NCBI GenBank assembly: GCA_013151035.1
Contig: JAADJB010000018.1
Location: 1-62,862 of the forward strand
DNA: 62,862 nucleotides
Origin: Gammaproteobacteria bacterium
GTDB lineage: Bacteria; Pseudomonadota; Gammaproteobacteria; JAADJB01
Direction of reading: 5' to 3'
Shown here: positions 5,101-61,817 of the stretch, one piece after another
How positions within the stretch are numbered: position 1 is the first letter of the stretch
Layout of the letters: the number at the start of each line of letters is the position of its first letter
Notes under the pieces: generated by a model
What the model saw: only the letters and a program-made list of their open reading frames with translations
Databases searched by the model: none
Told to the model about the DNA's origin: nothing
Translations under genes and position numbers: made by a program

Positions 5101-5181
5101 CCCCTTTTGGTCAGCTTTACTGGTAGTGAAATTATTCCCTTGAGTTCAGTGTGGCAATTTGCCGCACTTTTAGTAGTATTC

Positions 5182-5195
5182 TTGATCAGGATCAA
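5182..5195 (+). promoter_or_regulatory. FNR/DNR/NnrR-type box TTGATcaggATCAA
   Basis: Perfect TTGAT-N4-ATCAA palindrome about 165 bp upstream of the nosR start. Confidence 0.5.
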
Positions 5196-5359
5196 GGGTA
5201 GTTTACGGCTGTGAGTCTACGCTACTCCCTTAGTTTACTGGTAAATGCCTGAGGAACCTCTGATAGGATGTTAGTTGATATTAATGGACTATATGATTTT
5301 TCTGTGCAGGTGGTTTCACCAGTTATAAATACTTTTGATGTATTTGCATAGGGGTTGAT

Positions 5360-7450
5360 TTGATAAGATTTTTATCATTGATGTGTTGGTTATCAGTTCT
5401 CGCAATGAGTACTGTGCAGGCCTCGCTGGATGAATTTTTTGCGGATGCCCAGAATATATTTCCTGCGGCTAATCGATTCTCTGATTTTGAAGGTGAACCG
5501 CTGGTAGCGACTGTCTACCAGAATCAGAAGGTTCTGGGTTATCTTTTTCGTACTAAACAACTGGCACCGATCCCGGCCTATTCGGGGAAACCAATGGACA
5601 TGTTGGTCGGCATGGATACTGAAGGGGTTATTGTTGGTGTCAAGGTGCTTGAACATCATGAACCCATCTTGTTAGTCGGTATTCCCGAGAGTCGTCTCAC
5701 CGAATTTGTACAGCAATATACTGGTAAGTCTGTCAGTGATAAGGTCAAGGTTGGTGCAGGCGCACGTGAAGGCTACCAGAATATTGATGCTATCACCGGA
5801 GCCACTGTGACTGTGATGGTGATGAATGAGGCAATGATGCAATCGGCCTGGCAGGTGGCAGTGGCCAAAGGGATTGTTGAGGAAAGGCTTGAAGCACGAC
5901 AGCCTCCGGCTACAGTGCGCAAGGATGTCTTTGTGGAGCGTGACTGGACATTTTTGACAAATGATGGCTCGATTCGCTTTATGAAACTGAATCGTGGTGA
6001 TGTTGATCATGTGTTTGTCGGTACGGATGCAGAGTTTGTTGACCGTTCAGCGAATGCAGAAGAAGCAAAAGAGACCTTTATTAATCTTTATTATACTTAC
6101 CTTAATGCACCGACAGTCGGGCGCAATCTTTTGGGTGATTCGCAATATGATTGGTTGATGTCTAGCCTGAAGGAAAATGAACACCTGATTGCAATCATGG
6201 GTAATGGCCTGTATTCCTTTAAAGGGTCGGGTTATGTTCGTGGCGGAATATTTGATCGTATCCTGGTGCGCCAGAATAATCGGGAGATCAGTTTTCGTGA
6301 TCTGGATTATCATCGATTACTCGATGTATATGCCAAGGGGGTTCCCAAATTCTCTGAGATGGCAATCTTTGTCATTCGTGCAGAGCGCAGATTTGATCCT
6401 GGTACCATCTGGGAACTGGAGCTACTGGTAAAGCGTCAGACCACACCACTGGAAAGTGTGTTTTACAGTTTTTCCTCAACCTACAGTATTCCTGAGTCCT
6501 ATATTGATCGTCCACCGAGGGTGTTGATCGAGGAACCGGAAGCTATGTGGGTGCAGGTATGGCGCGAGCGTACACTACAGATTTCAGTATTAGTTGGTGG
6601 TTTGTTCCTGTTGACATTGATACTTGTCTTCCAGGATGTACTGGTAAAACATCCGTCATTGACGAATATATTACGCATCGGTTTCCAGATTTACACCCTG
6701 TTCTTTATTGGCTGGTATTTGTTGGGACAGTTATCAATCGTCAATGTGTTTACCTTTACTGGTGCGATGGCCAGTGATTTCCGCTGGGATACCTTCCTGA
6801 TTGATCCGACCATGTTTATCCTGTGGAGCTTTGTTGCTGCCTCATTATTATTCTGGGGACGTGGGGTTTATTGTGGCTGGTTGTGTCCCTTTGGTGCCTT
6901 GCAAAAACTGGTTAATGAGATTGCGGTTGCCCTACATGTTCGCCAGTTTAATCTTCCACAGTTTATCCATGACCGCTTATGGGGTATCAAATATCTGATT
7001 CTCATGGTTCTGTTTGGTATCTCATTACAGTCGCTACAGCTGGCCGAGCGTTATGCAGAGATTGAGCCCTTCAAGACAGCGGTTACCCTGCGCTTTATGC
7101 GTGAGTGGGGCTATGTGTTCTATGCTGCAGGACTGGTTTTGATTTCTGTATTTAATTGTAAATTTTATTGTAAGTATATTTGCCCACTGGGTGCAGCACT
7201 GGCTGTTCCTGCAAAGATGCGGCTGGTTGACTGGTTGCGGCGTCGTAAGGAATGTGGGTCTCCGTGTCAGACCTGTGCCAGGGAGTGTGAGATCCAGGCT
7301 ATTGATGAACGCGGTGTTATTAATCCAAACGAATGCCACTATTGCCTGGATTGTCAGGTGACTTATTGGGATAACAGGAAATGTCCACCTCTGGTGGATA
7401 AACGTAAGAAGAGAGAACGAGTAGTAGCAGTAAAAAACAAACTAAAGTAA
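5360..7450 (+). CDS. nosR: nitrous-oxide reductase expression regulator NosR (FMN-binding, polytopic membrane protein with two C-terminal 4Fe-4S ferredoxin motifs)
   Basis: Signal/TM N-terminus, periplasmic FMN-bind region (ITGATVT), multiple TM helices, CxxCxxCxxxCP motifs, and a position directly upstream of nosZ. The start is ambiguous between TTG 5360 and ATG 5381. Confidence 0.9.
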   Translation: MIRFLSLMCWLSVLAMSTVQASLDEFFADAQNIFPAANRFSDFEGEPLVATVYQNQKVLGYLFRTKQLAPIPAYSGKPMDMLVGMDTEGVIVGVKVLEHHEPILLVGIPESRLTEFVQQYTGKSVSDKVKVGAGAREGYQNIDAITGATVTVMVMNEAMMQSAWQVAVAKGIVEERLEARQPPATVRKDVFVERDWTFLTNDGSIRFMKLNRGDVDHVFVGTDAEFVDRSANAEEAKETFINLYYTYLNAPTVGRNLLGDSQYDWLMSSLKENEHLIAIMGNGLYSFKGSGYVRGGIFDRILVRQNNREISFRDLDYHRLLDVYAKGVPKFSEMAIFVIRAERRFDPGTIWELELLVKRQTTPLESVFYSFSSTYSIPESYIDRPPRVLIEEPEAMWVQVWRERTLQISVLVGGLFLLTLILVFQDVLVKHPSLTNILRIGFQIYTLFFIGWYLLGQLSIVNVFTFTGAMASDFRWDTFLIDPTMFILWSFVAASLLFWGRGVYCGWLCPFGALQKLVNEIAVALHVRQFNLPQFIHDRLWGIKYLILMVLFGISLQSLQLAERYAEIEPFKTAVTLRFMREWGYVFYAAGLVLISVFNCKFYCKYICPLGAALAVPAKMRLVDWLRRRKECGSPCQTCARECEIQAIDERGVINPNECHYCLDCQVTYWDNRKCPPLVDKRKKRERVVAVKNKLK

Positions 7451-46532: not shown

Positions 46533-46749
46533 GGAAACTCTAACCTGTCGTTGAAGTAATGGTAGCTATGATAACAGCAAGTATCTTTATAATATATCCA
46601 CCTGCCATGCTTGTTTTTCTTTGGGCTTAACTAAGAATCAGTAAAAATAATTTGACCTGAATCTGGATTAACTTAATGTGTTAAAATAAAGCGTACAAAG
46701 GCACACTAGTATTAAGTTGAAATGTAACAAAAACAAGGGGAATCCTTAC

Positions 46750-47154
46750 ATGAATCAATACCGTTGGGTATCAATTTTTATTCTTATCTTATCTACAAAT
46801 GTATATTCATATCAATCTAAAGTTGAAATTGTAGAGCAATTTGATGATTTAAAGATGGTCGCATTTATAAGCAAAGAATATATTAATAACAGTCCTGAAT
46901 GGATTCCAGGTAAAACAGCTCTTCCTTTGACTGTTGCCGATGCTATTAAAGCGGTCAATGATTTTAACAAAGATGAAAATAAAGTAGATGTTATAAGTGA
47001 AATAGAAATAAGAAAAATACCAAAACATAAGAAACACTGGCACTATTTAATTAAAGTTGCTAACAAGGCCATGAAATTAAAATATAATATTTATGTGGTA
47101 TTAATGAGTGGTAAGGTTGTTCCAGCAATGATTCAACCACAATCTTATAAATGA
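46750..47154 (+). CDS. hypothetical secreted protein (AT-rich)
   Basis: Signal-peptide-like N-terminus. Followed by a strong terminator. Confidence 0.4.
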   Translation: MNQYRWVSIFILILSTNVYSYQSKVEIVEQFDDLKMVAFISKEYINNSPEWIPGKTALPLTVADAIKAVNDFNKDENKVDVISEIEIRKIPKHKKHWHYLIKVANKAMKLKYNIYVVLMSGKVVPAMIQPQSYK

Positions 47155-47165
47155 CCGGTTATAAA

Positions 47166-47207
47166 AAGGGGACGGAGGGATTAAATAATCCTCTGTCCCT
47201 TTTTTTT
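47166..47207 (+). terminator. rho-independent terminator
   Basis: gggacggaggg ... ccctctgtccc followed by tttttttt. Confidence 0.65.
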
Positions 47208-47226
47208 AAAACACAGGGTATTTTAA

Positions 47227-47658
47227 ATGGATTACGAGAAGCGCGAAGAAAATCGCGAAGAGATAAGAAAAGCCAACGAATGCTTGTTAATGGAGTTTGA
47301 AGCGTGGCTAAAATCATCAGGTCTGTCGGAAAAGACGATAAATAATCATGTTTCGAATATTGATTTCTACGTAAACGACTATCTGTTGTACGATGATATA
47401 ACTGAGGCAAAAGATGGTGCATCCTCTGTAAGCATGTTTCTTGGATATTGGTTCATAAAAAAGGCGATGTGGGCAAGTCGGTCAACTATTAAGGGCAACG
47501 CAACAAGTCTCAAAAAGTTTTATACCTTTATGCATGAGAAGAAGCAGATAGATAAAGAAGACCTTAGTGACTTAAAAGAAGTGATAAAAGAAGATATGTC
47601 TGAATGGTTAGCAAGCTTGGAACGCTATGATGATCCATCAGTTGAGGAAGTTTGGTGA
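47227..47658 (+). CDS. hypothetical protein resembling a tyrosine-recombinase N-terminal SAM-like (core-binding) domain; probable orphan fragment
   Basis: ..FEAWLKSSGLSEKTINNHVSNIDFYVNDYL.. resembles integrase CB domains. No catalytic domain follows. Confidence 0.35.
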   Translation: MDYEKREENREEIRKANECLLMEFEAWLKSSGLSEKTINNHVSNIDFYVNDYLLYDDITEAKDGASSVSMFLGYWFIKKAMWASRSTIKGNATSLKKFYTFMHEKKQIDKEDLSDLKEVIKEDMSEWLASLERYDDPSVEEVW

Positions 47659-47877
47659 TGTGGCGTATGACATGGGGCTGGTTACAATCATCGCAATAAT
47701 TATTGTATGAGTTTCTATGAAAGCTAAAACATTTAGGTGTTACACGTCAATCTATTATAAAAGTTTGGTTGGCGGAGCGCTTAGAAAAAATAGCGTCTAA
47801 ATAACTGGCGACTGTATGTGGTAGGGACGATGAGTTTTATAAAATTAATTAACACCAATCAGGATGTTGGAAATATG

Positions 47878-48090
47878 ATGATAAATATAGGTCGATTGAT
47901 AGTGTTTTCAGCCATTGTTTCGGGTATTGGCTGTTCCAGTGGGGAAGACAAGGTGGCTCCGGAAAAAACGGTCAGTGAACCTGTTTTTCAAGGTCAGATT
48001 CAGGCGCTTGAAAAAGCAAAAGAGCTTGAGTTGATGATTAAAAATGAAGCAGAGAAGCGTCGTCAGGCGATAAAAGAAGGTAGTAATTAA
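47878..48090 (+). CDS. small putative lipoprotein
   Basis: Signal peptide plus ..SGIGCSS lipobox-like motif. Confidence 0.35.
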   Translation: MINIGRLIVFSAIVSGIGCSSGEDKVAPEKTVSEPVFQGQIQALEKAKELELMIKNEAEKRRQAIKEGSN

Positions 48091-48198
48091 GCTTCTGGCG
48101 GTTGTGATATGCGTGTAGTGCATAGTGGTAGCAGGGAACTTCTGATTATTCGGGTGTCATTACTATTTCATGGGTATTTTTTACTAAGGTGATATTGA

Positions 48199-49542: not shown

Positions 49543-50864
49543 GACGGTTATTTTATATATCATCTTTGTTCTTTGTTTTCCTGACCAGTCAGAACCTGTA
49601 CGCACAGGATATAGATATTCAGCATTGGCAGACCAGCCAGGGTACCAGGGTCTACTTTATTGCCGCACCCGAGTTACCCATGCTGGATGTGCGGGTGGTA
49701 TTTGCTGCGGGTTCTACCCATGATGATGCCTTGCCCGGTCTGGCAGCATTGACCAATACGCTACTCGATAAGGGTGCTGACGGGATGGATGCTGACACCA
49801 TTGCACAACGTATGGACGGGCTTGGTGCCCACTTGGGTGCCGGGTCTGAACGTGATATGGCGTGGTTATCTCTGCGCACTCTAAGTCAGGCGGATTTAAT
49901 GGATGATGCCTTACAGGTTTTTGCCAGCGTATTGAGTCATGCCGATTTTAATGAATCTGATTTTAAGCGTGAACGTGAACGGACGCTGATTGGTTTGAAG
50001 ATGGAGCAGGAACGCCCTGGCGCGATTGCGAGCAGAGCCTTTTACCGCGCTATCTATAATAAGCATCCTTATGCAACATCACCTGCTGGAAACCGGGAAA
50101 GTGTCGAGGCCATTCGTCTGCAACAGGTAAAGGCCTTTTATCAACGTTATTATGTTGCGCAGAATGCGGTGGTGTCGATAGTCGGTGATGTTGACAGGGA
50201 ACAGGCAGAGGCGATTGCCAGGCGTATTACCCGTGACCTGCCCAAAGGTCACGCGGCAGCAGCATTGGCATCTGTCGCTGATCTGGAGACAGGCTCTCAG
50301 CAATATATCCATCACCCTTCGCAACAGAGCCATTTACTGATGGGGCAACCGGGCGTTTATCGGGGTGACCCGGATTATTATGCGCTCTATACCGGGAATT
50401 ATATCCTCGGTGGGGGTGGTCTGGTCTCACGCATGAGTGATGAGGTGCGTGAGAAGCGAGGTCTTGCTTATAGTGCCTACAGTTATTTCCTGCCGATGCA
50501 AAGAAAAGGGCCTTTTATGTTGGGTTTACAAACGCGTAATGATCAGGTGGGCGAAGCGTTGCAGGTGGCACGTAAGACACTAACGGACTTTGTTACAAGC
50601 GGGCCAACGGAAGATGAGGTGGAGGCAGCAATACAGCATATTACCGGTGGCTTTCCCTTGCGTATTGATAGCAATGGCAAGATGATCGGGTATCTGTCGA
50701 TGATTGGTTTTTATGGATTGCCATTGAGTTATCTGGAAGACTTTAATGGAAATATCAGTCGGCTTACTCGGGATGAGATCCATGACGCATTCCGTCGGCG
50801 TATTAATCCTGATCGTATGGTAACGATTGTGGTGGGTGGTGAAGATATATTTAAAGGTGATTAG
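49539..50864 (+). CDS. M16-family peptidase, second (non-catalytic-type) subunit
   Basis: Signal peptide and M16 fold-like sequence with no HxxEH. Translationally coupled to the upstream M16 gene. Confidence 0.8.
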   Translation: MRRLFYISSLFFVFLTSQNLYAQDIDIQHWQTSQGTRVYFIAAPELPMLDVRVVFAAGSTHDDALPGLAALTNTLLDKGADGMDADTIAQRMDGLGAHLGAGSERDMAWLSLRTLSQADLMDDALQVFASVLSHADFNESDFKRERERTLIGLKMEQERPGAIASRAFYRAIYNKHPYATSPAGNRESVEAIRLQQVKAFYQRYYVAQNAVVSIVGDVDREQAEAIARRITRDLPKGHAAAALASVADLETGSQQYIHHPSQQSHLLMGQPGVYRGDPDYYALYTGNYILGGGGLVSRMSDEVREKRGLAYSAYSYFLPMQRKGPFMLGLQTRNDQVGEALQVARKTLTDFVTSGPTEDEVEAAIQHITGGFPLRIDSNGKMIGYLSMIGFYGLPLSYLEDFNGNISRLTRDEIHDAFRRRINPDRMVTIVVGGEDIFKGD

Positions 50865-51355
50865 AGGTTCTTTGGATTAATATCGAGTTGTTGCTCACCG
50901 GTATGGGTATTAACCTGATCCCAGTCTTCGATATCAAAACCAATCTGCACCACTGAGCAAGTTGCCATGTTGTTCATTCTTCCAGAGATGAGTTTATTCG
51001 CCAGATCTTCAAGCCCTGGGTTATGCGCGACAATGGCTATATCGTTATATTGCTTATCCACTTGCTGAATAATGCTGATGAGTTTATCGGTGCTTGCGCA
51101 ATAGAGCTCATCCAGGTAATGGATAGCCTCTTTATCGGCAAGTGGATATTCACACAGTAAGTCCAGTGTTTGCATAGCTCGCCTTGCCGTGCTGCACAGG
51201 ATCATATCAAAATGAACACCCCGTTCAGACAATGCCTTGCCCATCTGCGGGCTATCCATGAGGCCGCGTTCGTTGAGGATACGGTCGTGGTCGTTTGCGC
51301 CGGGTGTGCTCCATGAGGACTTGGCATGACGGATGAGTGTGAGTGTTTTATTCAT
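50861..51355 (-). CDS. sixA: phosphohistidine phosphatase SixA (histidine-phosphatase family)
   Basis: ..LIRHAKS.. RHG-type motif and ..VAHNPG... About 164 aa. Confidence 0.75.
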   Translation of the reverse strand: MNKTLTLIRHAKSSWSTPGANDHDRILNERGLMDSPQMGKALSERGVHFDMILCSTARRAMQTLDLLCEYPLADKEAIHYLDELYCASTDKLISIIQQVDKQYNDIAIVAHNPGLEDLANKLISGRMNNMATCSVVQIGFDIEDWDQVNTHTGEQQLDINPKNL

Positions 51356-51362
51356 AGTAACC

Positions 51363-51423
51363 CCCTAATCATTATTATAACGGTTCAAATCAAATAATCC
51401 GGATAATACGGGCTTGTTTTGTC
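51363..51423. repeat. 61-bp direct repeat, left copy (island boundary / att-like site)
   Basis: Identical to 55945-56005: ccctaatcattattataacggttcaaatcaaataatccggataatacgggcttgttttgtc. Confidence 0.9.
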
Positions 51424-51660
51424 AATTATACAGGGTGACATCTGAAATGTAGGCCTCCTTAGCTAGATGGGTCATCGAAATGTTCTGTGGTGGCATCATC
51501 TTCTGTATTACCGATTCTTTATGTTCGGATGAATAACGATTCATTATTGACTCTCTAGCACCCACCACAGCTTCTATTCTAATAATCTAAGTGAGGCGAT
51601 AACTATCCTGACAGAGGGGGAATAGGCACCCTGAAGCGTTAGCATAGCCACTATTTGACA

Positions 51661-51707
51661 TTTATATCAGTTCTGATATAAACTTGATTATATCGGAATT
51701 GATATAA
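51661..51707 (+). promoter_or_regulatory. two related palindromic operator-like sites (TTATATC-N6-GATATAA) upstream of the island gene
   Basis: tttatatcagttctgatataaa (51661-51682) and ttatatcggaattgatataa (51688-51707), 20-45 bp upstream of the start codon. Confidence 0.4.
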
Positions 51708-51726
51708 ATTCTGCATCAATTCAAAA

Positions 51727-54700
51727 ATGGAAGGTAAATTAGACATTATGACTAAATCACCAAAAACTAAACGTGAGTCATTTGTAGATATTAAGGAACG
51801 TGCAGAACTAATGACAACATTACGTGAGCATGTTAAACAACGCTCTGGCACACAAGCCGAAAAAGCTGGTGATCTTGGTATTACCCAGCCTCGTTTGAAT
51901 GATTTACTCAAAGATCGAATTGATAAATTCAGCCTGGATGCGCTTGTCACACTAGCAACAAAAGCCGGGCTACGCGTTAATATGAACGTTCAGAATGTAC
52001 AAATCCAAGCAGGTCTAGGAACAATTAAGTCAAATCTTGGACCAATACTATCAATATTTGCTCCAGCGCCTAGTGAGTTGGGTAAGTTAGATGCGGCATT
52101 AGGCACCAGCGTTTTTCTTGGTTTATTGCGATGTGAAGCTATTGCGAATGGGTTAAGCTCGAAGGATGTGGTGGTATCATTAAATATCAACATAAAAGAT
52201 GGTGGGGTTGATGCAAAAGTAGATAATTCCCCTACATCCAGCTCCCTGTTATCTAAGGGTAGCACGCACTTTCAAATAAAAACGGGGCCTAGCTTCAAGC
52301 CATGGCAACCCAGTGCCTTAAAGAGAGAATTATTTGGAAAATCGACTGCTAAACCCTCTAAAAAATTATTAGGCGACGAATTAAAAAACTGCCTTGATAA
52401 AAATGGAACATATGCTCTTATTACTTTTGGCCATGATCTATTGCCAAATCAACATACAAAAATAATAAATGAACTTACTAAGTTATTTGAGGCCTGCGGT
52501 TATAAAAGTCCAAAGGTTGGGGTGTTTGGGCAAGGTCAGCTAGTCAGCGAGTTAGATAAATATCCATCTATTTGTCTTTCCTTATTTGGCTTAGACGAAG
52601 GTGGTTTTTTGTCTATTGCAGGCTGGCGTGGAAAGGCTCAAATGCAGCTACCGTTAGAGCTTGGAGATGAACAAAAAACCTTAATACAAGACATACGAAC
52701 AACCTTACAAGATGATACTGTACAGCACATCCGAATAATTGGTGAACCTGGTATTGGTAAGACTCGACTTGTTCTTGAGTCTGTTTCTACTAATGAAATA
52801 GCGCCATCAGTGATTTATGTCCCAACAGGTGAAGATTTTCAGAAAAGCAAATTATTCAATGAGCTTCTCAAATCAGAAAAGCACTATTCTGTTACCTTAG
52901 TCATAGATGATTGTGATGATCGTGACAGATCATCAATTTGGTCGGCATTGAAAGGTCATAGTGGAATCAAATTAATCACAATCGATCATGGATCAGATGA
53001 AACTCATGACAGCACCATGAAGAGTATTATTTGTCCGCAACTGCAAGAAGAGCAAATTAAAAATATTTTGCACTCTTATCTTCAAAAAAATATGGATCTA
53101 CACAATTGGGCTACTTGGTGTAGTGGATCACCTCGTGTCGCACACGCTGTTGGTGAAAATCTTAAAAGTAATCCTGAAGATATTCTCAAATCACCGGCAG
53201 ATGTACCTATTTGGGATCGTTTTATCATTGGTCATAAAGCAATGGATAGCCGTGATGCAGAGCAACACAGGCTTGTGATGCGTCATATTGCTTTGTTTCA
53301 CCGCTTCGGTTTTGAATCGCCAGTGAGTGAAGAAGGTCAATTTATTTGCAACCTCATCAAAGAGGTTGATCCAACAATGACTTGGGGCAGATTCCAAATA
53401 ATTGTACAGCACTATCGAAACAAGCGGGTATTACAGGGTCGACACACATTATTTATTGTACCTAAAGCTTTACATATTCATCTCTGGGTTGAGTTTTGGG
53501 ATAACTACGGGCGAGGATTTGAGTTTATAACCTTTTTAGAGAAAGTCCCCACCAGCATGAAACACTGGTTTTTACAGTTATTTATTTACGCTCATAAGGC
53601 CGCTCCAGCTCAAGATGTAGTAAAAAAGATTTTATCTCCAAAAGGTCCATTCTCAAATCAATCATTCATGAAATCAGAAGTTGGTCTTCGGTTTATAAAG
53701 TACTTAGCAGAAGCAGATCCTATTGCCACACTTGCATTGTTGGAAAGAACGATTAATACTTGGACATATGAGGATCTGTATAAATGGGATGCAGGTCGTC
53801 AAGACATAGTTTGGGCATTAGGAAAAATCTCTGTTTGGGATAGTCTCTTTATTCGTTCAGTAAATATATTGATTCTAATTGTATTAACGGAGAATAGTAC
53901 TTATTCAAATAATTCCAAAGGACTTCTATTAAAGCTGTTCAGCACTGGTCTAGGGTGGGCGCCTACTGAAGCAGCACCGTCGAAACGAATTCCTTTCTTA
54001 AAAGAACTGGTGAAAAGTAGCGATGTGAATAAGCGAGCATTAGGCTTAGAATTATGTCAAGAATGGCTAAAAACTCGTGGTGGTTATAGGATGATAGGTG
54101 CTGAATATCAAGGGCTGAGGCCACCAATTGAATTTTGGTATCCTACGACTTATGGAGAATTGTTTGATTATTGGCGTGAGGTATTGCGTTTTCTACACAA
54201 TGAAATGAAAGGATTTAACACTGCTGACCGAAATCAGGCTGCTAATGTTTTAGTCAACGCGGCCAGAGGGCTGATCAGAATCGATGAGATGTCGAATGAG
54301 GTGATGGATATCTTATTTGACCTTGCCAATGATGATGAGATTAACCGAAAGTTACTTACCCAATTTGTTATATGTGAGCTACAGCAAAGACATAAAAAGC
54401 CGGATAAAAAAATGCTCACTAAAATTCATAAGCTTGATAAGCTATTAACTGGTGAGTCATTGTGGGAGCGAACCAATCGATATGTTCTACATACCAATTG
54501 GGACGAGGATTATATGTTCCGCGGAGAAAAATACAAGAAATTAGACTTACCTAGCAAACGTGTACGCGAATTGGCTAAAGAGTACATGAATGATATCAAT
54601 ATCTTTTCAGAAAACTTAAACAAGTTGGTTCGGGAAAGTGGTCATAGACTGCCTGAATTAGGCGTGGAATGCGGCAAGCTTGCCACCCCTATATTTGATG

Positions 54701-55809
54701 AAGAAATCTTCTCGCATATTCAATTAAAAAGTAATGATATTAATGGCATCTTTATTGGTGGTTATTTGGCTGGCCTTCGCACACATGATGCTGTGCGCTG
54801 GGAAGAACGATTAAATTGCTTATTACACAATAAAGATCTTCGAGAAATTGCAGTAGATTGCATCATACGTTCCGGTTTCACCGAATCAATGTTGCGCTAC
54901 ATGCTTACTTTAATAAGGGAAGGAGAGCTAACATCCATTGCATTTGATAGATTTTCATTTGGGAAGCGCCTTAGTGATATTGAAGATGACTTTTTTCAAG
55001 AAATTATTATTACACTCCTGAAGTATAATGATAATACATCAGCAATTATCTGTACGCAGCTTGTTCAAAATTATTATTTTGATAAAGAATCTTCCGGTGA
55101 GTTTCCAGAGAAAATGGTATTTGATGTCCTCACAGCCACTCTTTTGACTAAAAATAAAGATCAGATGTATGAATACTATTGGAACATAATTGCTGAAGTA
55201 TTTCTTAAAAAACACCCTAATCGAAGCATTGAATTGCTCGCTAAAATTTTAACTAATATGGAAGCAATTTCACGTTATAGTCATTCGGATTACATCACAA
55301 AGGTTGCCGATAAAATTGTTGTTTTATACCCACATGAATCTTGGGAAATTGTTACTGATATATTGGCTTCAGAGATCATGAATCATTATGAAGTGATTTA
55401 CTGGCTGGGTGATACCGGATATGAAAGCAAACCAAAAAGAGGAGCCATTAGCTACATGCCTGCAGAAGAAATCATAAACTGGGTCAATGAAGATAGAGAA
55501 GAAAGATTCTGGCTAATACGAGACATTTTACCTAAAACTGTAGATCAGAATGATGGTGGTCAATTAACGCGATTGATTATCGAAGAGTTTTTCAATGATG
55601 ATAAAATGGTGGGTAGTTTGTTCATACATTTTCATATGGGAACCTGGATTGGGCATGAGAGTAACCACCTGTCTAAAATTCGTGATTCAGTTAGACAGTG
55701 GATATCGGAAGAGCCATCCATCAAAATCCAATCATGGCTAGGAAAATTCATTGATTACCTAAGCAACCACATAGAGGAGGATAAAATTAAAGAAGAAAGG
55801 GAATTTTAA
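51727..55809 (+). CDS. 1360-aa protein: N-terminal XRE-type HTH, unknown ~230-aa domain, STAND/AAA-type P-loop NTPase, ~900-aa alpha-helical repeat C-terminus
   Basis: HTH ..TQAEKAGDLGITQPRLNDLL... Walker A IIGEPGIGKTRLVLE. Walker B TLVIDDCDD. Long helical C-terminal region. An alternative start lies at 51748. Confidence 0.8.
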   Translation: MEGKLDIMTKSPKTKRESFVDIKERAELMTTLREHVKQRSGTQAEKAGDLGITQPRLNDLLKDRIDKFSLDALVTLATKAGLRVNMNVQNVQIQAGLGTIKSNLGPILSIFAPAPSELGKLDAALGTSVFLGLLRCEAIANGLSSKDVVVSLNINIKDGGVDAKVDNSPTSSSLLSKGSTHFQIKTGPSFKPWQPSALKRELFGKSTAKPSKKLLGDELKNCLDKNGTYALITFGHDLLPNQHTKIINELTKLFEACGYKSPKVGVFGQGQLVSELDKYPSICLSLFGLDEGGFLSIAGWRGKAQMQLPLELGDEQKTLIQDIRTTLQDDTVQHIRIIGEPGIGKTRLVLESVSTNEIAPSVIYVPTGEDFQKSKLFNELLKSEKHYSVTLVIDDCDDRDRSSIWSALKGHSGIKLITIDHGSDETHDSTMKSIICPQLQEEQIKNILHSYLQKNMDLHNWATWCSGSPRVAHAVGENLKSNPEDILKSPADVPIWDRFIIGHKAMDSRDAEQHRLVMRHIALFHRFGFESPVSEEGQFICNLIKEVDPTMTWGRFQIIVQHYRNKRVLQGRHTLFIVPKALHIHLWVEFWDNYGRGFEFITFLEKVPTSMKHWFLQLFIYAHKAAPAQDVVKKILSPKGPFSNQSFMKSEVGLRFIKYLAEADPIATLALLERTINTWTYEDLYKWDAGRQDIVWALGKISVWDSLFIRSVNILILIVLTENSTYSNNSKGLLLKLFSTGLGWAPTEAAPSKRIPFLKELVKSSDVNKRALGLELCQEWLKTRGGYRMIGAEYQGLRPPIEFWYPTTYGELFDYWREVLRFLHNEMKGFNTADRNQAANVLVNAARGLIRIDEMSNEVMDILFDLANDDEINRKLLTQFVICELQQRHKKPDKKMLTKIHKLDKLLTGESLWERTNRYVLHTNWDEDYMFRGEKYKKLDLPSKRVRELAKEYMNDINIFSENLNKLVRESGHRLPELGVECGKLATPIFDEEIFSHIQLKSNDINGIFIGGYLAGLRTHDAVRWEERLNCLLHNKDLREIAVDCIIRSGFTESMLRYMLTLIREGELTSIAFDRFSFGKRLSDIEDDFFQEIIITLLKYNDNTSAIICTQLVQNYYFDKESSGEFPEKMVFDVLTATLLTKNKDQMYEYYWNIIAEVFLKKHPNRSIELLAKILTNMEAISRYSHSDYITKVADKIVVLYPHESWEIVTDILASEIMNHYEVIYWLGDTGYESKPKRGAISYMPAEEIINWVNEDREERFWLIRDILPKTVDQNDGGQLTRLIIEEFFNDDKMVGSLFIHFHMGTWIGHESNHLSKIRDSVRQWISEEPSIKIQSWLGKFIDYLSNHIEEDKIKEEREF

Positions 55810-55944
55810 CTCCAATAGGAGCATAAAAAATGACATGGTCTGCTTTGAATTGATTTGAGTCATTATCGCATCTACATCCTTTAAATATCCATATCCACCT
55901 AAGATGCTATTAGAACAATAGTAATAATAGCAAACCTAGCAGTT

Positions 55945-56005
55945 CCCTAATCATTATTATAACGGTTCAAATCAAATAATCCGGATAATACGGGCTTGTT
56001 TTGTC
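55945..56005. repeat. 61-bp direct repeat, right copy (overlaps the last 13 codons and stop of cti)
   Basis: Identical to 51363-51423. Confidence 0.9.
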
Positions 56006-58298
56006 TGTATTCATCCTGAAACCAGTCGGCGAATTTCCAGAAGTCAGGATCACTGCGTCTTACCCCATAGCGACTCACAAATTTTTCATAATCGGCTGGC
56101 GTCTTGATAGAGGCACAGCGGATTGTGAATTCTTCAATCTCTGATAGCGCAACGGAAAAAAAGAAATTGGGGTATGAACCTTCCAGCCATTTGGTTACTG
56201 TGATGGTGTCTTTTTTAATATCGGCACGATCACGTTGATGTTCATCGGCAAGAAATGAGGTGACATTTTTGTAGGCCTTGTTACGAATCAGGGTATAGGC
56301 AAAATGATCCTCTGGATTATCGGTGGTTACGCGGATAAAGGCGACATCAGGGAATGCGTGCAGGCGTTCACCTTGTAGTCGTGCGATCTTTTTCATTGCG
56401 CGGTCGGCATCTTTTGTTGATGTTATGGATGATGGCTTTTTGCAGTTGATGCGCCCACAATCATTCATGCTTTTTGCCAGTGGGGCTATACGGGAGACCC
56501 TGTTTCTAATGTATTGGTATAATTCTTTTTGTGGATTTTCGGTTTGATAACCAACTACCGATTCTGTGTTTAACCATTCCTGCGGGGCAGAAAATAATGT
56601 TTCAATGCTATTGCGTTGTCCTGCATACCAGCTATCACGAATCTCTTTGCGGTGATGGACAGGGAGAAAGGCAAGGAAGTAATCTTCGCCTTCCATGCGT
56701 AGAAAATCCATATAAATTCGTGTGCTGATCAGGTGACTGAGGTTGCCAAAGACATTGAATCCGGCAACCAGTAAATAATGTATACGTTCAAACATCGGGT
56801 AATCAATGATCCATGCCGTCTCCGGGTCGTCTCCAACCAGTCCGTAGGCGACTGAACCGCTATCGAAGTGACGAAAGATGGTGAGTGTGGCATTGGGGTT
56901 TTTGCCATCGCCATCCCAGATGTAATTCATGGCATGCTCCAGTTTGTGGGTACCGATGGTCTTGAACCAGGCTTGTTTGTGTTCCATATAGCGTCTTTGC
57001 CCTTGCCAGTAATCGGTCCATATACGCAGTAGATCCAGGTTACTGTTTTCATCTTCGGGCAACTGTAGTTCATTGACCATTTTTCCGATGAATTGCTCAT
57101 TGTTGGTGATTATTGCCTGCCTGGGATCAAAAAACATAACCCAGAATTGATCCTCAATAACATCAAGCGCGATCTGCCCCCGACAAACGGGGCCTTTAAC
57201 AAAACCCTCGATGAAAAAATGTGCGTCATCCAGTAGAAAACGATAGCGTGAGTTTGCTGGCAGGTCGGAAAAGACCTTGAATGGATTGGAGGTAATACTT
57301 ATCGCGTAGGAGGGTAGTTTTGAGACGGTATAATCCTGGCTCAGGAAAAGTTCTCTGTAACGCTGCATACGTTTATCAGAAAATTCATAGACAATATGAT
57401 TCTTGGCGACAATGACAGGATGATAGCGGAGTAAGCGATAATAGAAGGGGGCATTACCTGGGTCGTCATAGGGACGTAAGGTCGGGATCTCATTAATGGG
57501 TTCTCCCGTGGGTGTGCTGGATCGTACCAGTTGATAAAACTCCCGTTGAGGGGATAGGGCAAAGTGAATATGGGCATGAAACAGGTGTTCATAGAGATAA
57601 CGGCTGACCAGTTGTTGTTTATTGGAGGTCTGATTCAGAAACGCTTCCCATTGTTTGATCTGTGGTACAACGGTAGCGGAGGGGGTTGGCGCTTCTGGTG
57701 TCGGGGCCCCTTGTGCAATCCAGGCGGTTAGCGTTTTATATTCTGTGTCAGACAGGTTTGGCATGGCATAGGGCATGCCCCACAGGGGGTGTTGTTGTGA
57801 ATAGTCCTCGATGGTTTCAAGTGTTGGGCAGGTTTGTTCTCGATCAAGTCCCAACGTGAAGCTATCCGGTAGTTTTTCCTCACGCGGTTGTGGGTGTTGT
57901 TGTTTTAGTCGTAACAGGTGATACATGACCGAGTTTTTTAGATTGTCTTCGGCATTTTGTGAGCCTTCGTTAAGTATTGAAGAAAATCCGAGTGAACGCC
58001 ATTCAGCGCTATTTTTTGCATCAATGAACAAGCGTGTCGCCGGTATCGAATTGATGCGCTCAGGGTTATAGATGCGTTCTTCACTGGCACCACGCCGTAG
58101 ACCTTCGCTGGAGGATAACTTAAGCTGACAGGGGGCATCATAGCAACCATGACAGACGATACAACGTCGTTCCAGTATCGGACTGACTTGCTTATCAAAT
58201 GAAACCGAGTGATCCAGTAGCGCTGAGGATGAGTTCAATTCAACGCTCATGGGTGCAACGGGTGGCCCCAGTGATTGATGAATAAGGAATCCAGACAA
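55947..58298 (-). CDS. cti: fatty-acid cis/trans isomerase (periplasmic haem-c protein)
   Basis: ..RCIVCHGCYDAPCQLKL.. CxxCH haem motif characteristic of Cti. About 780 aa. The true start and signal peptide probably lie upstream of the listed TTG. Confidence 0.85.
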   Translation of the reverse strand: MSGFLIHQSLGPPVAPMSVELNSSSALLDHSVSFDKQVSPILERRCIVCHGCYDAPCQLKLSSSEGLRRGASEERIYNPERINSIPATRLFIDAKNSAEWRSLGFSSILNEGSQNAEDNLKNSVMYHLLRLKQQHPQPREEKLPDSFTLGLDREQTCPTLETIEDYSQQHPLWGMPYAMPNLSDTEYKTLTAWIAQGAPTPEAPTPSATVVPQIKQWEAFLNQTSNKQQLVSRYLYEHLFHAHIHFALSPQREFYQLVRSSTPTGEPINEIPTLRPYDDPGNAPFYYRLLRYHPVIVAKNHIVYEFSDKRMQRYRELFLSQDYTVSKLPSYAISITSNPFKVFSDLPANSRYRFLLDDAHFFIEGFVKGPVCRGQIALDVIEDQFWVMFFDPRQAIITNNEQFIGKMVNELQLPEDENSNLDLLRIWTDYWQGQRRYMEHKQAWFKTIGTHKLEHAMNYIWDGDGKNPNATLTIFRHFDSGSVAYGLVGDDPETAWIIDYPMFERIHYLLVAGFNVFGNLSHLISTRIYMDFLRMEGEDYFLAFLPVHHRKEIRDSWYAGQRNSIETLFSAPQEWLNTESVVGYQTENPQKELYQYIRNRVSRIAPLAKSMNDCGRINCKKPSSITSTKDADRAMKKIARLQGERLHAFPDVAFIRVTTDNPEDHFAYTLIRNKAYKNVTSFLADEHQRDRADIKKDTITVTKWLEGSYPNFFFSVALSEIEEFTIRCASIKTPADYEKFVSRYGVRRSDPDFWKFADWFQDEYRQNKPVLSGLFDLNRYNND

Positions 58299-60116: not shown

Positions 60117-61817
60117 ATGACTCCATCATTAGAAATCATAAATGGCCATTACAGTGTTGCCGGGATAAAACCGCAAAATGAGGATTCCTGTGGTGTATTG
60201 GTGCCTGATGAGCCCTTGTTAACGACCAAGGGTATTGCGGTGGTTGTTGCTGACGGGATGAGTGCCAGTGATAATGGCAAGCAGGCATCCGAGACCTGTG
60301 TTAAGAGCTTTTTGAGTGATTACTTCAGTACGCCGGAGACCTGGTCGGTTAAGAACTCTGGTCAGAAGATCCTTGCCGCGCTCAATCGCTGGCTGCATGG
60401 ACAAGGGCAACGTGAATATCAAAGTCATAAGGGGATGGTGACTACCCTGAGTGTTTTGATTTTCAAGTCCAACACGGCTTATATCTTTCATGTGGGTGAT
60501 ACCCGTATCTATCGTTTACGCAATAATGAGCTGGAGCAACTCACCCAGGATCATCGTTTTTTTGTAAGTGATGAAAAGACCTATCTATCGCGTGCATTGG
60601 GTATTGATCTGCGGGTTGATATTGACTACAAAACCTTGTCGCTTGAAACCGGTGATGTCTTTATTCAGTTGACAGATGGTGTGTATGAATTTATTGCCGA
60701 TAGCATGATTAAGTCGATTCTGCAGGATTATCAGCATAAACCCGAGATTGCCGCCAGGGAGATTGTTGAAGAGGCATTGCTCAATAAGAGTGATGATAAT
60801 CTGACCTGCCAGATTATCGAGGTAACGCATTTACCTAGCGAAAATGAAAATGAGTTTTATGAAAAGTTGACCGAGCTTCCATTTCCGCCCCCACTGGAAC
60901 CCGGTTTGATACTGGATGGTTACAAAGTGTTACGCCATCTGTTTTCAAACAAACGTACTGAGGTTTATCTGGTTGAGGATAGCGATACCGGTGACAAGGT
61001 GGTGTTGAAGGCACCCTCGGTGAATTATCTGGATGATCCGGAATATATCAATCAGTTCTTGCATGAGGAATGGGCTGGAAGAAGAATTAATAACCCTCAT
61101 GTGCTGCGGGTGTTGGAGATTAAACGCAGACGTACCGCGCTGTACTATATTACCGAATACATTGAAGGGTGTTCATTGCGTCAGTGGCTGGATGATAATG
61201 CGCGACCCTCTTTGAGTCAGGTGCGCGCCTTTATTGAACAGATTGCGCGTGGGCTGCGTAGCTTTCATCGCCTGGAAATGATTCACCAGGATTTGAAACC
61301 GGAAAATATACTCATTGATGAGCATGACACCTTAAAGATTATTGATTTTGGTTCCACCAAGATTGCTGGTATTGAAGAGATTATGCTGCCTATCGAAGTG
61401 AATAATATCCTGGGCACGATTAATTATACGGCGCCTGAATATCATGTGGGTAATCCAGGAAGCAATCGTTCCGATATTTATTCATTAGGAATCATTGCCT
61501 ATGAGATGTTGACCGGGCATTTGCCCTACGGCAAGGAGATGACGGCGCGTAATATCAAGCGTGTGAATTATATTTCTATTAAGCATTTTAATCCGGAGAT
61601 ACCTATCTGGGTCGATAAGGCGATTGAAAAAGCTGTGCTTATTAATCCGGATAATCGTTTTTCTCTCTTATCTGAATTTGTTTATGCGCTAAATCATGCC
61701 GATTCATCGCTGGTGAAGAAAGATTATGTCCCTCTTATAAAGCGTAATCCGGTGCGTACCTGGCAGATGATCAGTGCTATTCTTTTGGTGATTAACATCT
61801 TGTTAATGGTTTATTGA
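60117..61817 (+). CDS. PP2C-type phosphatase fused to a Hanks-type Ser/Thr protein kinase, C-terminal TM helix
   Basis: N-terminal PP2C motifs (..NEDSCGV.., VVADGMSAS). Kinase motifs HQDLKPENILI and DFGS. C-terminal hydrophobic helix. Confidence 0.85.
   Translation: MTPSLEIINGHYSVAGIKPQNEDSCGVLVPDEPLLTTKGIAVVVADGMSASDNGKQASETCVKSFLSDYFSTPETWSVKNSGQKILAALNRWLHGQGQREYQSHKGMVTTLSVLIFKSNTAYIFHVGDTRIYRLRNNELEQLTQDHRFFVSDEKTYLSRALGIDLRVDIDYKTLSLETGDVFIQLTDGVYEFIADSMIKSILQDYQHKPEIAAREIVEEALLNKSDDNLTCQIIEVTHLPSENENEFYEKLTELPFPPPLEPGLILDGYKVLRHLFSNKRTEVYLVEDSDTGDKVVLKAPSVNYLDDPEYINQFLHEEWAGRRINNPHVLRVLEIKRRRTALYYITEYIEGCSLRQWLDDNARPSLSQVRAFIEQIARGLRSFHRLEMIHQDLKPENILIDEHDTLKIIDFGSTKIAGIEEIMLPIEVNNILGTINYTAPEYHVGNPGSNRSDIYSLGIIAYEMLTGHLPYGKEMTARNIKRVNYISIKHFNPEIPIWVDKAIEKAVLINPDNRFSLLSEFVYALNHADSSLVKKDYVPLIKRNPVRTWQMISAILLVINILLMVY

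What the first reader, a model, noticed from the sequence alone, without database searches (positions are those of the whole stretch)
51363..56005. Single-gene 4.58-kb island with perfect 61-bp flanking direct repeats, inserted precisely between cti and sixA
Identical 61-bp sequences occur at 51363-51423 and 55945-56005. The right copy contains the final 13 codons (..LSGLFDLNRYNND) and stop of cti. The left copy is therefore a relic cti 3' end sitting 10 bp upstream of the sixA start codon.

This reconstructs an ancestral, translationally coupled cti-sixA junction (TAG-N10-ATG with a GGGGG Shine-Dalgarno). An AT-rich element inserted into it by att-like duplication.

The island encodes only one gene: a 1360-aa protein with N-terminal XRE-type HTH, an unknown ~230-aa domain, a STAND-type P-loop NTPase (GEPGIGKT / LVIDDCDD) and a ~900-aa helical-repeat C-terminus. 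Effector-NTPase-sensor tripartite layouts are typical of antiviral STAND (Avs/NLR-like) proteins and of large STAND transcription regulators.

There is no integrase, transposase or cargo. This looks like a minimal, possibly trans-mobilised, defence-type islet. The insertion also places sixA under island-derived upstream sequence.
Basis: seen in the sequence. Interest (0 to 1): 0.8.

Follow-up and report, generated by a model that had tools for sequence, protein, structure and literature searches.

The report
Decayed defence islet inserted after cti
A 4.5-kb piece of foreign DNA, bounded by a perfect 61-bp repeat of the end of the cti gene, carries one intact gene: a distant relative of the Avs8 antiviral sensor-nuclease with an added DNA-binding domain. 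It is an ordinary kind of defence islet that has lost its own integration enzyme.

Summary
A perfect 61-bp direct repeat (51363-51423 / 55945-56005) brackets 4,521 bp of low-GC DNA (37.9% vs 46.4%) between cti and a SixA-family phosphatase gene. The nearest relative found (L086) has the empty site: cti-TAA-11 nt-ATG-sixA-M16b-M16a.

The only intact gene (51727-55809) is colinear with canonical Avs8A/PD-lambda-4_A at 21% identity. It has the conserved nuclease motif (DGGVD...FQxK) and Walker A/B motifs, and a STAND fold. It adds a 107-residue N-terminal XRE-type HTH.

Two palindromes, TTATATC-N6-GATATAA, overlap its promoter. They lie upstream of every homologue examined (diverged in L001) and nowhere else in the fetched DNA, which suggests autorepression.

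There is no recombinase. The closest homologue (L178) sits in a 5.9-kb island with a tyrosine integrase and 58-bp tRNA-Met repeats. Another (L001) sits in a tRNA-Pro island.

Best reading: a decayed integrative defence islet inserted by a single crossover. Integrase-mediated and RecA/illegitimate routes cannot be separated. Trans-mobilisation is not supported. Interest is moderate.

The parts
50861..51355 (-). SixA-family histidine phosphatase gene (164 aa); the chromosomal gene left of the insertion
   Evidence: PF00300 E=5.5e-10. TIGR00249 sixA 51.7 bits, below the 74.5 cut-off. 68% identical to the orthologue in the empty-site locus L086.
51363..51423 (.). Left copy of the 61-bp direct repeat: a non-coding relic of the cti 3' end (18 codons + TAG + 2 nt). 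Its TAG lies 9 nt upstream of the sixA ATG.
   Evidence: It aligns with the genuine cti 3' end of L086.
51424..51628 (-). IS3-family 5' remnant: left-end region plus orfA codons 1-40 (51544-51425). It is cut exactly at the repeat edge, and a TGA stop forms across the junction (51424-51422). It points the same way as sixA.
   Evidence: ORF list. tblastn 52-55% identity, E=1e-6, to annotated IS3/ISAs20 transposases. The left end shares the CCCCC..TG.CAG..TAGTT motif with L090/L091, and the tip is estimated at about 51628. Weak HTH_Tnp_1 hit.
51655..51707 (+). Promoter-like site (TTGACA 51655-51660, TAAACT 51679-51684) overlapped by two palindromic operators TTATATC-N6-GATATAA (51662-51681 and 51688-51707)
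   Evidence: The palindrome half-sites are conserved in all 6 aligned loci within otherwise 52%-identical DNA. 2 matches in the window against 0.02 expected. Exact matches in fetched loci lie only upstream of homologue genes.
51727..55809 (+). HTH-nuclease-STAND-sensor gene (1360 aa; an alternative start at 51748 fits homologues better). GenBank annotates it only as an XRE family transcriptional regulator (NOX08712.1).
51793..51990 (+). XRE-type HTH domain (residues 23-88)
52060..52626 (+). Predicted PD-(D/E)xK (Mrr/Cap4-like) nuclease effector domain (residues about 112-300), with E137, D162, Q183 and K185
   Evidence: D158, G160, D162, A163, K164, Q183 and K185 are invariant in 31 homologues. 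The AF2 model shows alpha-beta-beta-beta-alpha-beta topology with pLDDT about 78-88 here. DGGVD...FQxK aligns with canonical Avs8A. Cap4_nuclease hit in 1 of 31 members, E=0.004.
52654..53211 (+). STAND-type P-loop NTPase (Walker A GEPGIGKT 339-346; Walker B LVIDDCDD 391-398)
53212..55806 (+). Helical C-terminal sensor region, colinear with the Avs8A sensor
   Evidence: PADLOC PD-Lambda-4_A profile matched over residues 114-1358 = profile positions 7-1273 of 1283. BLASTP is colinear to residue 1081. The structure was not modelled.
55810..55944 (.). 135-bp 3' flank of the island, origin unknown
   Evidence: No similarity to the flanks of any homologue locus. No terminator or significant fold.
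55945..56005 (.). Right copy of the 61-bp repeat: the functional 3' end and stop of cti
55947..58298 (-). cti, fatty-acid cis/trans isomerase, intact
   Evidence: PF06934 E=8.3e-267, profile positions 3-692 of 692. 86% identical to the L086 orthologue.

Best explanation
What it is: a small foreign genomic islet, 4,521 bp plus one extra 61-bp copy of the target. It entered the chromosome by a single-crossover (Campbell-type) event at the last 61 bp of cti. cti therefore stayed intact, and a relic of its 3' end was left next to sixA.

Most likely origin: a tyrosine-integrase island like the one that carries the closest homologue (L178), which later lost its recombinase module. Its left arm is now a truncated IS3 element. 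As it stands it is not self-mobile. It could only be lost by RecA recombination between the 61-bp repeats, or moved by recombination in the flanking core genes.

Cargo: a single-gene antiviral STAND system distantly related to Avs8/PD-lambda-4.
- By analogy with Avs8 and other Avs proteins (not tested here), a C-terminal helical sensor binds a phage protein.
- Binding would drive NTP-dependent oligomerisation of the STAND module.
- That would activate the N-terminal Mrr/Cap4-like PD-(D/E)xK nuclease and abort infection.

The extra N-terminal XRE HTH most likely binds the two conserved palindromes over the gene's own promoter. This would keep expression of a potentially toxic protein low (autorepression).

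Shown: the repeat, the empty site, the foreign composition, the IS3 remnant, homology to Avs8A, the conserved motifs, the STAND fold and the conserved operator.

Inferred: the enzyme that made the crossover, loss of an integrase, autorepression, the trigger and the defence phenotype.
For: Insertion:
- Perfect 61-bp repeat.
- Empty site cti-TAA-11 nt-ATG-sixA-M16b-M16a in the closest relative L086, with cti 86%, M16a 90% and M16b 84% amino-acid identity.
- GC 37.9% against 46.4%.

Cargo:
- PADLOC PD-Lambda-4_A E=2.4e-35 over the full length.
- 21% identity, E=2e-26, colinear BLASTP to a bona fide Avs8A, with nuclease and Walker motifs aligned.
- Catalytic and Walker residues invariant in 31 homologues.
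- STAND/NLR fold hits, with Avs3 top.
- Avs8A alone gives defence and senses HK97-fold capsid proteins (bioRxiv 10.1101/2025.07.02.662641; 10.64898/2026.01.04.697583).

Mobile, defence-type contexts of homologues:
- L178: 5.9-kb island with integrase PF12835 and 58-bp tRNA-Met repeats.
- L001: 14.5-kb island with 29-bp tRNA-Pro repeats.
- L083: Tn7-like cargo next to a type I restriction-modification system.
- L085: next to HipAB, with an integrase nearby.
- About 55-74% identity across Gammaproteobacteria, Nitrospira and Desulfobulbaceae.

Operator: palindrome half-sites conserved in all 6 aligned loci, 2 found against 0.02 expected, and no exact match elsewhere in the fetched loci. They overlap a TTGACA/TAAACT promoter-like site.
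Against: - No recombinase or remnant of one is in the island or window.
- In L178 the integrase lies between the gene's 3' end and the intact target. Here only 135 unrelated bp lie in that position, so an L178-like ancestor needs more than one deletion.
- The IS3 fragment abuts the repeat with no residual element arm. That is what an illegitimate junction would give.
- None of 80 other cti loci shows the cti 3' end used as an attachment site.
- The window repeat has no similarity to the L178 att repeat.
- Similarity to Avs8A is distant: 119.5 bits against 1777 bits for a true member.
- The nuclease fold was not confirmed by a domain-level structure search. The isolated-domain model was poor.
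- No experiment supports defence or autorepression.
Confidence: 0.6

Rival explanations
1. The final structure is the same, but no site-specific recombinase was involved. A DNA fragment came from a donor in which the island already lay next to cti. Either it circularised by an illegitimate join (IS3 orfA codon 40 to cti position -61) and integrated by a RecA single crossover over the 61-bp homology, or it integrated by homology-facilitated illegitimate recombination with cti as the anchor. On this view the 61-bp repeat is a by-product, not an att site.
For: - The IS3 orfA is cut exactly at the repeat edge. Only 1 nt (G) could be shared: TGG in the intact IS against TGA here.
- No recombinase is present.
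- cti is not a recurrent attachment site.
- In E. coli, partly degraded and recircularised plasmids integrated by single crossover and left duplications of 109-950 bp. HFIR junctions often had little or no homology (PMC3240628).
Against: - It needs a donor with the island already beside cti, so the first insertion is left unexplained.
- 61 bp is near the lower limit for RecA recombination (my own knowledge), and such events are very rare.
- The closest homologues travel in integrase islands with repeats of similar length.
Confidence: 0.3
2. The islet is an active, trans-mobilised cassette of the CIME type. The 61-bp repeats are functional attL/attR sites, recombined by an integrase encoded elsewhere in the genome or on a helper element.
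For: The repeats duplicate the 3' end of the target and keep it intact, and the islet has no recombinase of its own. Integrase-bearing relatives of the island exist.
Against: - No helper integrase is in the 62.9-kb contig. The only integrase-like ORF (47227-47658) has the N-terminal SAM-like domain alone.
- The left arm next to the repeat is a broken IS3, not an att arm.
- The repeat has no internal symmetry or structure.
- No second instance of this att was found in 80 cti loci or in a metagenome scan.
Confidence: 0.07
3. The protein is a large STAND transcription regulator of the MalT/AfsR type, as its GenBank name 'XRE family transcriptional regulator' suggests, rather than an immune effector.
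For: It has an N-terminal HTH with a conserved operator and is annotated as a regulator.
Against: - A PD-(D/E)xK motif is invariant between the HTH and the NTPase.
- It is colinear with an experimentally validated defence protein.
- The operator lies only at its own promoter.
- Homologues sit in mobile elements and next to restriction-modification or toxin-antitoxin genes, and the family is patchily distributed across phyla.
Confidence: 0.05
4. The repeat-flanked insertion is an assembly artefact of a metagenome-assembled contig.
For: The window is a whole MAG contig, and read data could not be inspected.
Against: - The junction between the repeat and the IS3 fragment shares at most 1 nt, so a graph assembler has no k-mer on which to make a false join.
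- Both copies sit in biologically coherent contexts: an intact cti, and a relic at the spacing seen in L086.
Confidence: 0.03

Closest known systems
Avs8 / PD-lambda-4 (Avs8A), an antiviral STAND that senses HK97-fold major capsid proteins
   Same: The order of domains is the same: Mrr-type nuclease, P-loop STAND NTPase, long helical sensor. The alignment is colinear from residue 108 onward, with DGGVD...FQxK and the Walker motifs aligned. It works as a single gene, since Avs8B is dispensable.
   Different: - Only 21% identity: 119.5 bits to the PADLOC profile against 1777 bits for a true member.
- It has an extra 107-residue N-terminal XRE HTH and a conserved double operator.
- It has no Avs8B-like neighbour.
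- It forms its own well-conserved subfamily, 55-74% identical across phyla.
- Its trigger is unknown.
tRNA-targeting tyrosine-integrase genomic islands, here the 5.9-kb tRNA-Met island of L178 that carries the closest homologue
   Same: A direct repeat of similar length (58 vs 61 bp) duplicates the 3' end of the target gene, and the intact target lies on the 3' side of the defence gene. It has the same operator and cargo gene, and is minimal in size.
   Different: The window island has no integrase. Its target is a protein-coding gene (cti), not a tRNA. The flanks are unrelated and the att sequences are dissimilar.
CIMEs, cis-mobilisable elements derived from ICEs such as ICESt1/ICESt3 at the 3' end of fda in Streptococcus thermophilus (from my own knowledge, not checked here)
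   Same: They are flanked by att-type repeats at the 3' end of a protein-coding gene and lack a recombinase of their own.
   Different: No helper element and no excision are known here, and one arm is a broken IS3.
Duplications made by single crossover of recircularised DNA, and homology-facilitated illegitimate recombination (PMC3240628)
   Same: The insert is flanked by a duplicated stretch of the homologous anchor, and the junction has little or no microhomology.
   Different: The duplications reported there were 109-950 bp and arose in a laboratory conjugation assay. Here the repeat is 61 bp and the event is natural and unobserved.
Autoregulated toxin-antitoxin and defence loci with XRE/HigA-type repressors (from my own knowledge)
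   Same: An HTH_37/XRE domain sits with palindromic operators over the promoter of a potentially toxic gene.
   Different: The HTH is fused to the effector protein itself rather than encoded as a separate repressor.

Membership tests
Avs8 / PD-lambda-4_A | Full-length colinear homology to the family profile | tested here: met
   PDLC03991 E=2.4e-35, residues 114-1358 against profile positions 7-1273 of 1283. BLASTP E=2e-26 over 1044 columns.
Avs8 / PD-lambda-4_A | A score and identity in the range of accepted members | tested here: not met
   119.5 bits against 1777 bits for the Enterobacter plasmid Avs8A. 21% identity. It is a distant sister family, not a member in the narrow sense.
Avs8 / PD-lambda-4_A | N-terminal Mrr-type PD-(D/E)xK nuclease effector | tested here: inconclusive
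   The D162...Q183-x-K185 motif is invariant and aligns with Avs8A, and the topology fits. No domain-level fold match was obtained. The only Pfam support is a Cap4_nuclease hit in 1 of 31 members.
Avs8 / PD-lambda-4_A | Operon partner Avs8B | tested here: not met
   There is no ORF between the stop (55809) and the repeat, and no conserved neighbour in 7 homologue loci. Avs8B is dispensable for defence.
Avs8 / PD-lambda-4_A | Activation by HK97-fold major capsid protein | not testable with these tools
   This needs co-expression or binding assays.
Antiviral STAND (Avs) in general | Tripartite effector, STAND NTPase and repeat sensor, with intact Walker A and B motifs | tested here: met
Antiviral STAND (Avs) in general | Association with mobile elements and defence genes | tested here: met
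   L083: Tn7-like element plus type I restriction-modification. L085: HipAB. L178 and L001: tRNA islands.
Antiviral STAND (Avs) in general | Protection against phage | not testable with these tools
   An experiment is required.
Tyrosine-integrase integrative island | Direct repeats that duplicate the 3' end of the target gene, with an empty site in relatives | tested here: met
Tyrosine-integrase integrative island | An integrase gene inside the element | tested here: not met
   No integrase ORF or remnant was found.
Tyrosine-integrase integrative island | The same attachment site is used repeatedly | tested here: not met
   None of 80 cti loci has a second copy of its cti 3' end downstream, apart from a tandem cti in L028. 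The sample holds no close relatives.
CIME (trans-mobilisable, att-flanked element) | A cognate helper integrase in the same genome, and excision products | not testable with these tools
   Only this one contig of the genome is available. None is in the window.
IS3 family (the remnant) | OrfA N-terminal HTH and a left-end sequence like those of family members | tested here: met
   52-55% identity, E=1e-6, to annotated IS3/ISAs20 transposases. The left-end motif is shared.
IS3 family (the remnant) | Complete orfAB, a right inverted repeat and a target duplication | tested here: not met
   Only 40 codons remain, and there is no other copy in the window.
STAND transcription regulators (MalT/LAL, AfsR) | A DNA-binding output domain and no enzymatic effector | tested here: not met
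   An HTH is present, but an invariant nuclease motif lies between the HTH and the NTPase.
SixA (TIGR00249 equivalog), for the left flanking gene | A score above the curated cut-off | tested here: not met
   51.7 bits against a 74.5-bit cut-off. The His_Phos_1 domain is present.

The most novel reading that the evidence does not exclude
The recombinase-less, single-gene cassette bounded by 61-bp copies of the cti 3' end is still mobile. On this reading it is excised and re-inserted in trans by a recombinase encoded elsewhere, which would make it a minimal 'parasitic' defence cassette that targets the end of a housekeeping gene.
Probability: 0.07. Interest if true: 0.7.

Novelty: new variant of a known kind. 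Interest (0 to 1): 0.38.

Why it matters
This is a clean, fully bounded example of how a single antiviral STAND gene is gained: an exact empty site, an exact repeat and a decayed arm.

It also points to a widespread and well-conserved subfamily, present in Gammaproteobacteria, Nitrospira and Desulfobulbaceae. In it an Avs8-like sensor-nuclease is fused to an XRE HTH and always comes with a double palindromic operator. If the HTH autorepresses the gene, it would be a simple built-in way to control the dose of a toxic immune receptor.

Public annotation calls these proteins 'XRE family transcriptional regulators', so they are probably missed in some defence-system surveys. None of this changes current concepts. 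It extends them.

Tried and rejected
**Searches that found nothing useful**
- Exact-sequence look-ups of the big protein, cti, sixA and P0001 found no contig on record.
- A degenerate metagenome scan for the cti C-terminus (...FDLNRYNND) found nothing.
- 80 cti loci from GTDB genomes (cti 43-74% identical) share no synteny with the window and never have sixA downstream. They could not serve as empty sites.
- Those cti loci also show no repeat of the cti 3' end.
- 80 metagenome loci with the M16a peptidase (at most 67% identical) keep M16a-M16b but lack sixA and cti.
- Viral contigs matched only the HTH domain.
- PDB sequence searches matched only the HTH.
- The literature search for HTH-fused Avs proteins found nothing, and the supplements of the 2026 Avs preprint found nothing.

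- The AlphaFold model of the isolated nuclease domain was too poor to use (pLDDT 49).
- The afdb50 library was unavailable.

**Ideas considered and rejected**
- A Xer/dif-type site or a structured att core in the repeat: there is no symmetry or fold beyond chance.
- A tRNA target: the window has no tRNA gene.
- Shared att with the L178 island: similarity is at chance level.
- Integrase remnants in the window: none.
- Similarity of the 135-bp right flank, or of the 21 bp between the IS3 tip and the operator, to any homologue locus: none.
- IS3 transposition as the cause of the repeat. From my own knowledge, IS3 makes 3-bp target duplications, and here the IS itself is truncated.
Full report
**Observation.** The window holds two identical 61-bp sequences, at 51363-51423 and 55945-56005, 4,582 bp apart. 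Identity ends abruptly on both sides. By my arithmetic, a chance perfect 61-mer pair in 62.9 kb is expected about 4e-28 times.
- The right copy is the true 3' end of cti (55947-58298, minus strand; PF06934 E=8e-267). It holds 2 nt past the stop, the TAG, 18 codons (QNKPVLSGLFDLNRYNND) and 2 nt more.
- The left copy is a relic. Its TAG lies 9 nt upstream of the ATG of a 164-aa His_Phos_1 gene (50861-51355, minus strand).
- The flanking gene is SixA-family but scores below the TIGR00249 cut-off.
- The 4,521 bp between the copies have 37.9% GC, against 46.4% for the rest of the window.

**Empty site.** The window is a whole contig of an uncultured gammaproteobacterium, and no same-species sequence was found. 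The closest SixA homologue (68% identity) lies on a 5.1-kb contig, L086.
- L086 reads cti (86% aa identity), TAA, 11 nt, ATG-sixA, M16b (84%), M16a (90%). It is about 82% identical to the window at the nucleotide level.
- The alignment runs straight through the left 61-bp relic.
- More distant genomes do not keep this neighbourhood.

**Anatomy of the island, from left to right.**
1. The relic repeat.
2. A 205-bp remnant of an IS3-family element on the minus strand.
   - Its left-end region shares a motif with ISAs20-like elements.
   - The first 40 codons of orfA (MNRYSSEHKESVIQKMMPPQNISMTHLAKEAYISDVTLYN) are 52-55% identical to annotated IS3 transposases (E=1e-6).
- The conserved next codon would be TGG (W). 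Here the frame ends in a TGA that straddles the repeat edge. The IS is therefore cut exactly at the repeat, with at most 1 nt shared.
3. A promoter-like TTGACA-18-TAAACT, overlapped by two palindromes TTATATC-N6-GATATAA (51662-51681 and 51688-51707).
4. The 1360-aa gene (51727-55809).
5. 135 bp of unknown origin, with no terminator or notable fold.
6. The functional cti end.

**The protein.**
- From residue 108 onward the protein is colinear with Avs8A/PD-lambda-4_A. The PADLOC profile is matched over residues 114-1358 (E=2.4e-35).
- BLASTP against a bona fide Avs8A from an Enterobacter plasmid (1777 bits to the same profile) gives 21% identity over 1044 columns (E=2e-26). DGGVD...FQxK, GxxGxGKT and hhhDD/N are aligned.
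- In an alignment of 31 homologues, D158, G160, D162, A163, K164, Q183, K185, the Walker A residues G339-T346 and the Walker B residues D394 and D395 are invariant.
- An AlphaFold model of residues 1-620 (pLDDT 70) gives an alpha-beta-beta-beta-alpha-beta nuclease-type core, with D162 in strand 2 and Q183/K185 in strand 3.
- The best structural matches of that model are Avs3, plant NLR resistosomes, CED-4/Apaf-1/Dark, SAMD9 and Avs5.
- Pfam gives only weak support: NB-ARC hits in 18 of 31 members, and a Cap4_nuclease hit in one member.
- Avs8A is an Mrr-nuclease STAND protein that binds HK97-fold capsid proteins and defends without Avs8B.
- This protein is therefore a distant Avs8-like antiviral STAND with an added HTH. 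It is not a housekeeping regulator, although GenBank names it 'XRE family transcriptional regulator'.

**Operator.** Six loci were aligned upstream of the gene. Their DNA is otherwise about 52% identical, yet the palindrome half-sites are conserved in all six. The pattern occurs twice in the window against 0.02 expected. Among 177 fetched loci, exact matches lie only in front of homologue genes. Autorepression by the fused HTH is the simplest reading. It is inferred, not shown.

**The family and its contexts.** About 120 listed homologues are 54-74% identical, about 1356 aa long and all carry the HTH. They come from Gammaproteobacteria, Nitrospira and Desulfobulbaceae. Relatives without the HTH, at 20-30% identity, occur on cyanobacterial, haloarchaeal and enterobacterial plasmids. 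Across loci only the operator and the gene are conserved, about 51650-55809 in window coordinates. The contexts are mobile or defence-type:
- L083: cargo of a Tn7-like transposon, next to a type I restriction-modification system.
- L085: next to HipAB, with an integrase 5.5 kb away.
- L001: a 14.5-kb island bounded by 29-bp repeats of the tRNA-Pro 3' end.
- L178, the closest homologue (74%): a 5.9-kb island bounded by 58-bp (97%) repeats of the tRNA-Met 3' end. It holds only the gene, a 260-aa tyrosine recombinase (PF12835/PF12834) and a 66-aa ORF.

**How the insertion arose.** The structure is what a single crossover between the chromosome and a circular DNA carrying 61 bp of the cti 3' end would give.
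- *Route A, about 0.4:* an L178-like integrase island that later lost its recombinase, with a deletion from inside the IS3 into the left repeat setting its present 61-bp length.
- *Route B, about 0.3:* a fragment from a donor with the island beside cti. It was either recircularised by an illegitimate join and integrated by RecA, or integrated by homology-facilitated illegitimate recombination. Both outcomes are documented experimentally (PMC3240628).
- *For A:* the repeat restores the target's 3' end, and the closest homologues sit in integrase islands with repeats of similar length.
- *For B:* the exact IS3-repeat abutment, the absence of any recombinase remnant, and no sign that cti is a recurrent attachment site.
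- *A difficulty for A:* in L178 the integrase lies between the gene and the intact target. Here that space is 135 unrelated bp.
- One genome cannot settle this.
- An active trans-mobilised cassette is not excluded but has no positive support. An assembly artefact is unlikely, because the junctions share no k-mer.

**Consequences (inferred).**
- cti is unchanged.
- sixA has lost its close coupling to cti. It now lies downstream of the IS3 left end, which points the same way and may supply its transcription.
- The perfect 61-bp repeats allow precise RecA-mediated loss of the islet.

**Verdict.** The thing itself is a known kind: a small, decayed integrative defence islet with an Avs-type gene. 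The modest novelty is the HTH-fused, operator-bearing Avs8-like subfamily, and the unusually clean record of a recombinase-less single-gene gain.

Noticed in passing
window 46533-48198: A low-GC (32-38%) stretch lies between ftsY and the M16 peptidase pair. It holds a small secreted-looking ORF (46717-47154) and a 143-aa ORF (47227-47658) that has only the N-terminal SAM-like domain of tyrosine integrases and no catalytic domain. It may be a second decayed mobile-element scar. No flanking repeats were found.
   Followed up: partly
L178 1650-7631: A complete minimal island of 5.9 kb. 58-bp repeats of the tRNA-Met 3' end enclose only the HTH-Avs8-like gene, a 260-aa PF12835 tyrosine recombinase and a 66-aa ORF. 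It is a candidate for the intact counterpart of the window islet.
   Followed up: yes
L083 3233-20101: A Tn7-like transposon (TnsA/B-like rve protein, TniB, TniQ) carries the HTH-Avs8-like gene directly followed by a type I restriction-modification system with a DUF3800 gene. It ends near a tRNA-Met and rpoD.
   Followed up: no
L001 1274-15831: A 14.5-kb island bounded by 29-bp repeats of the tRNA-Pro 3' end. It carries phage-like genes (a GP3_package hit, an HTH) plus the Avs8-like gene, and may be a phage satellite or prophage remnant.
   Followed up: partly
L028 about 4657-6948 and about 13800: One related MAG contig carries two cti copies about 7 kb apart.
   Followed up: no
window 60117-61817: A 566-aa protein fuses a PP2C phosphatase to a Ser/Thr protein kinase, downstream of an MFS transporter gene. 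It is unrelated to the finding.
   Followed up: no
window 51727 vs 51748: The start codon of the big gene is uncertain. Homologues align best with the ATG at 51748 (MTKSPKTKRE...). GenBank calls a 1339-aa product and IMG a 1360-aa product.
   Followed up: partly
window 55947-58298: The cti ORF as listed starts at a TTG and has about 85 residues before the Pfam CTI domain begins. The true start may lie further downstream, which may be why the exact look-up failed.
   Followed up: no
L002 8761-9439 and 14204-14279: Upstream of the homologue gene is a 32-nt inverted-repeat pair 615 bp apart, which looks like a MITE. A tRNA-Asn lies 184 bp downstream of the gene, but no tRNA-derived repeat was found.
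   Followed up: partly
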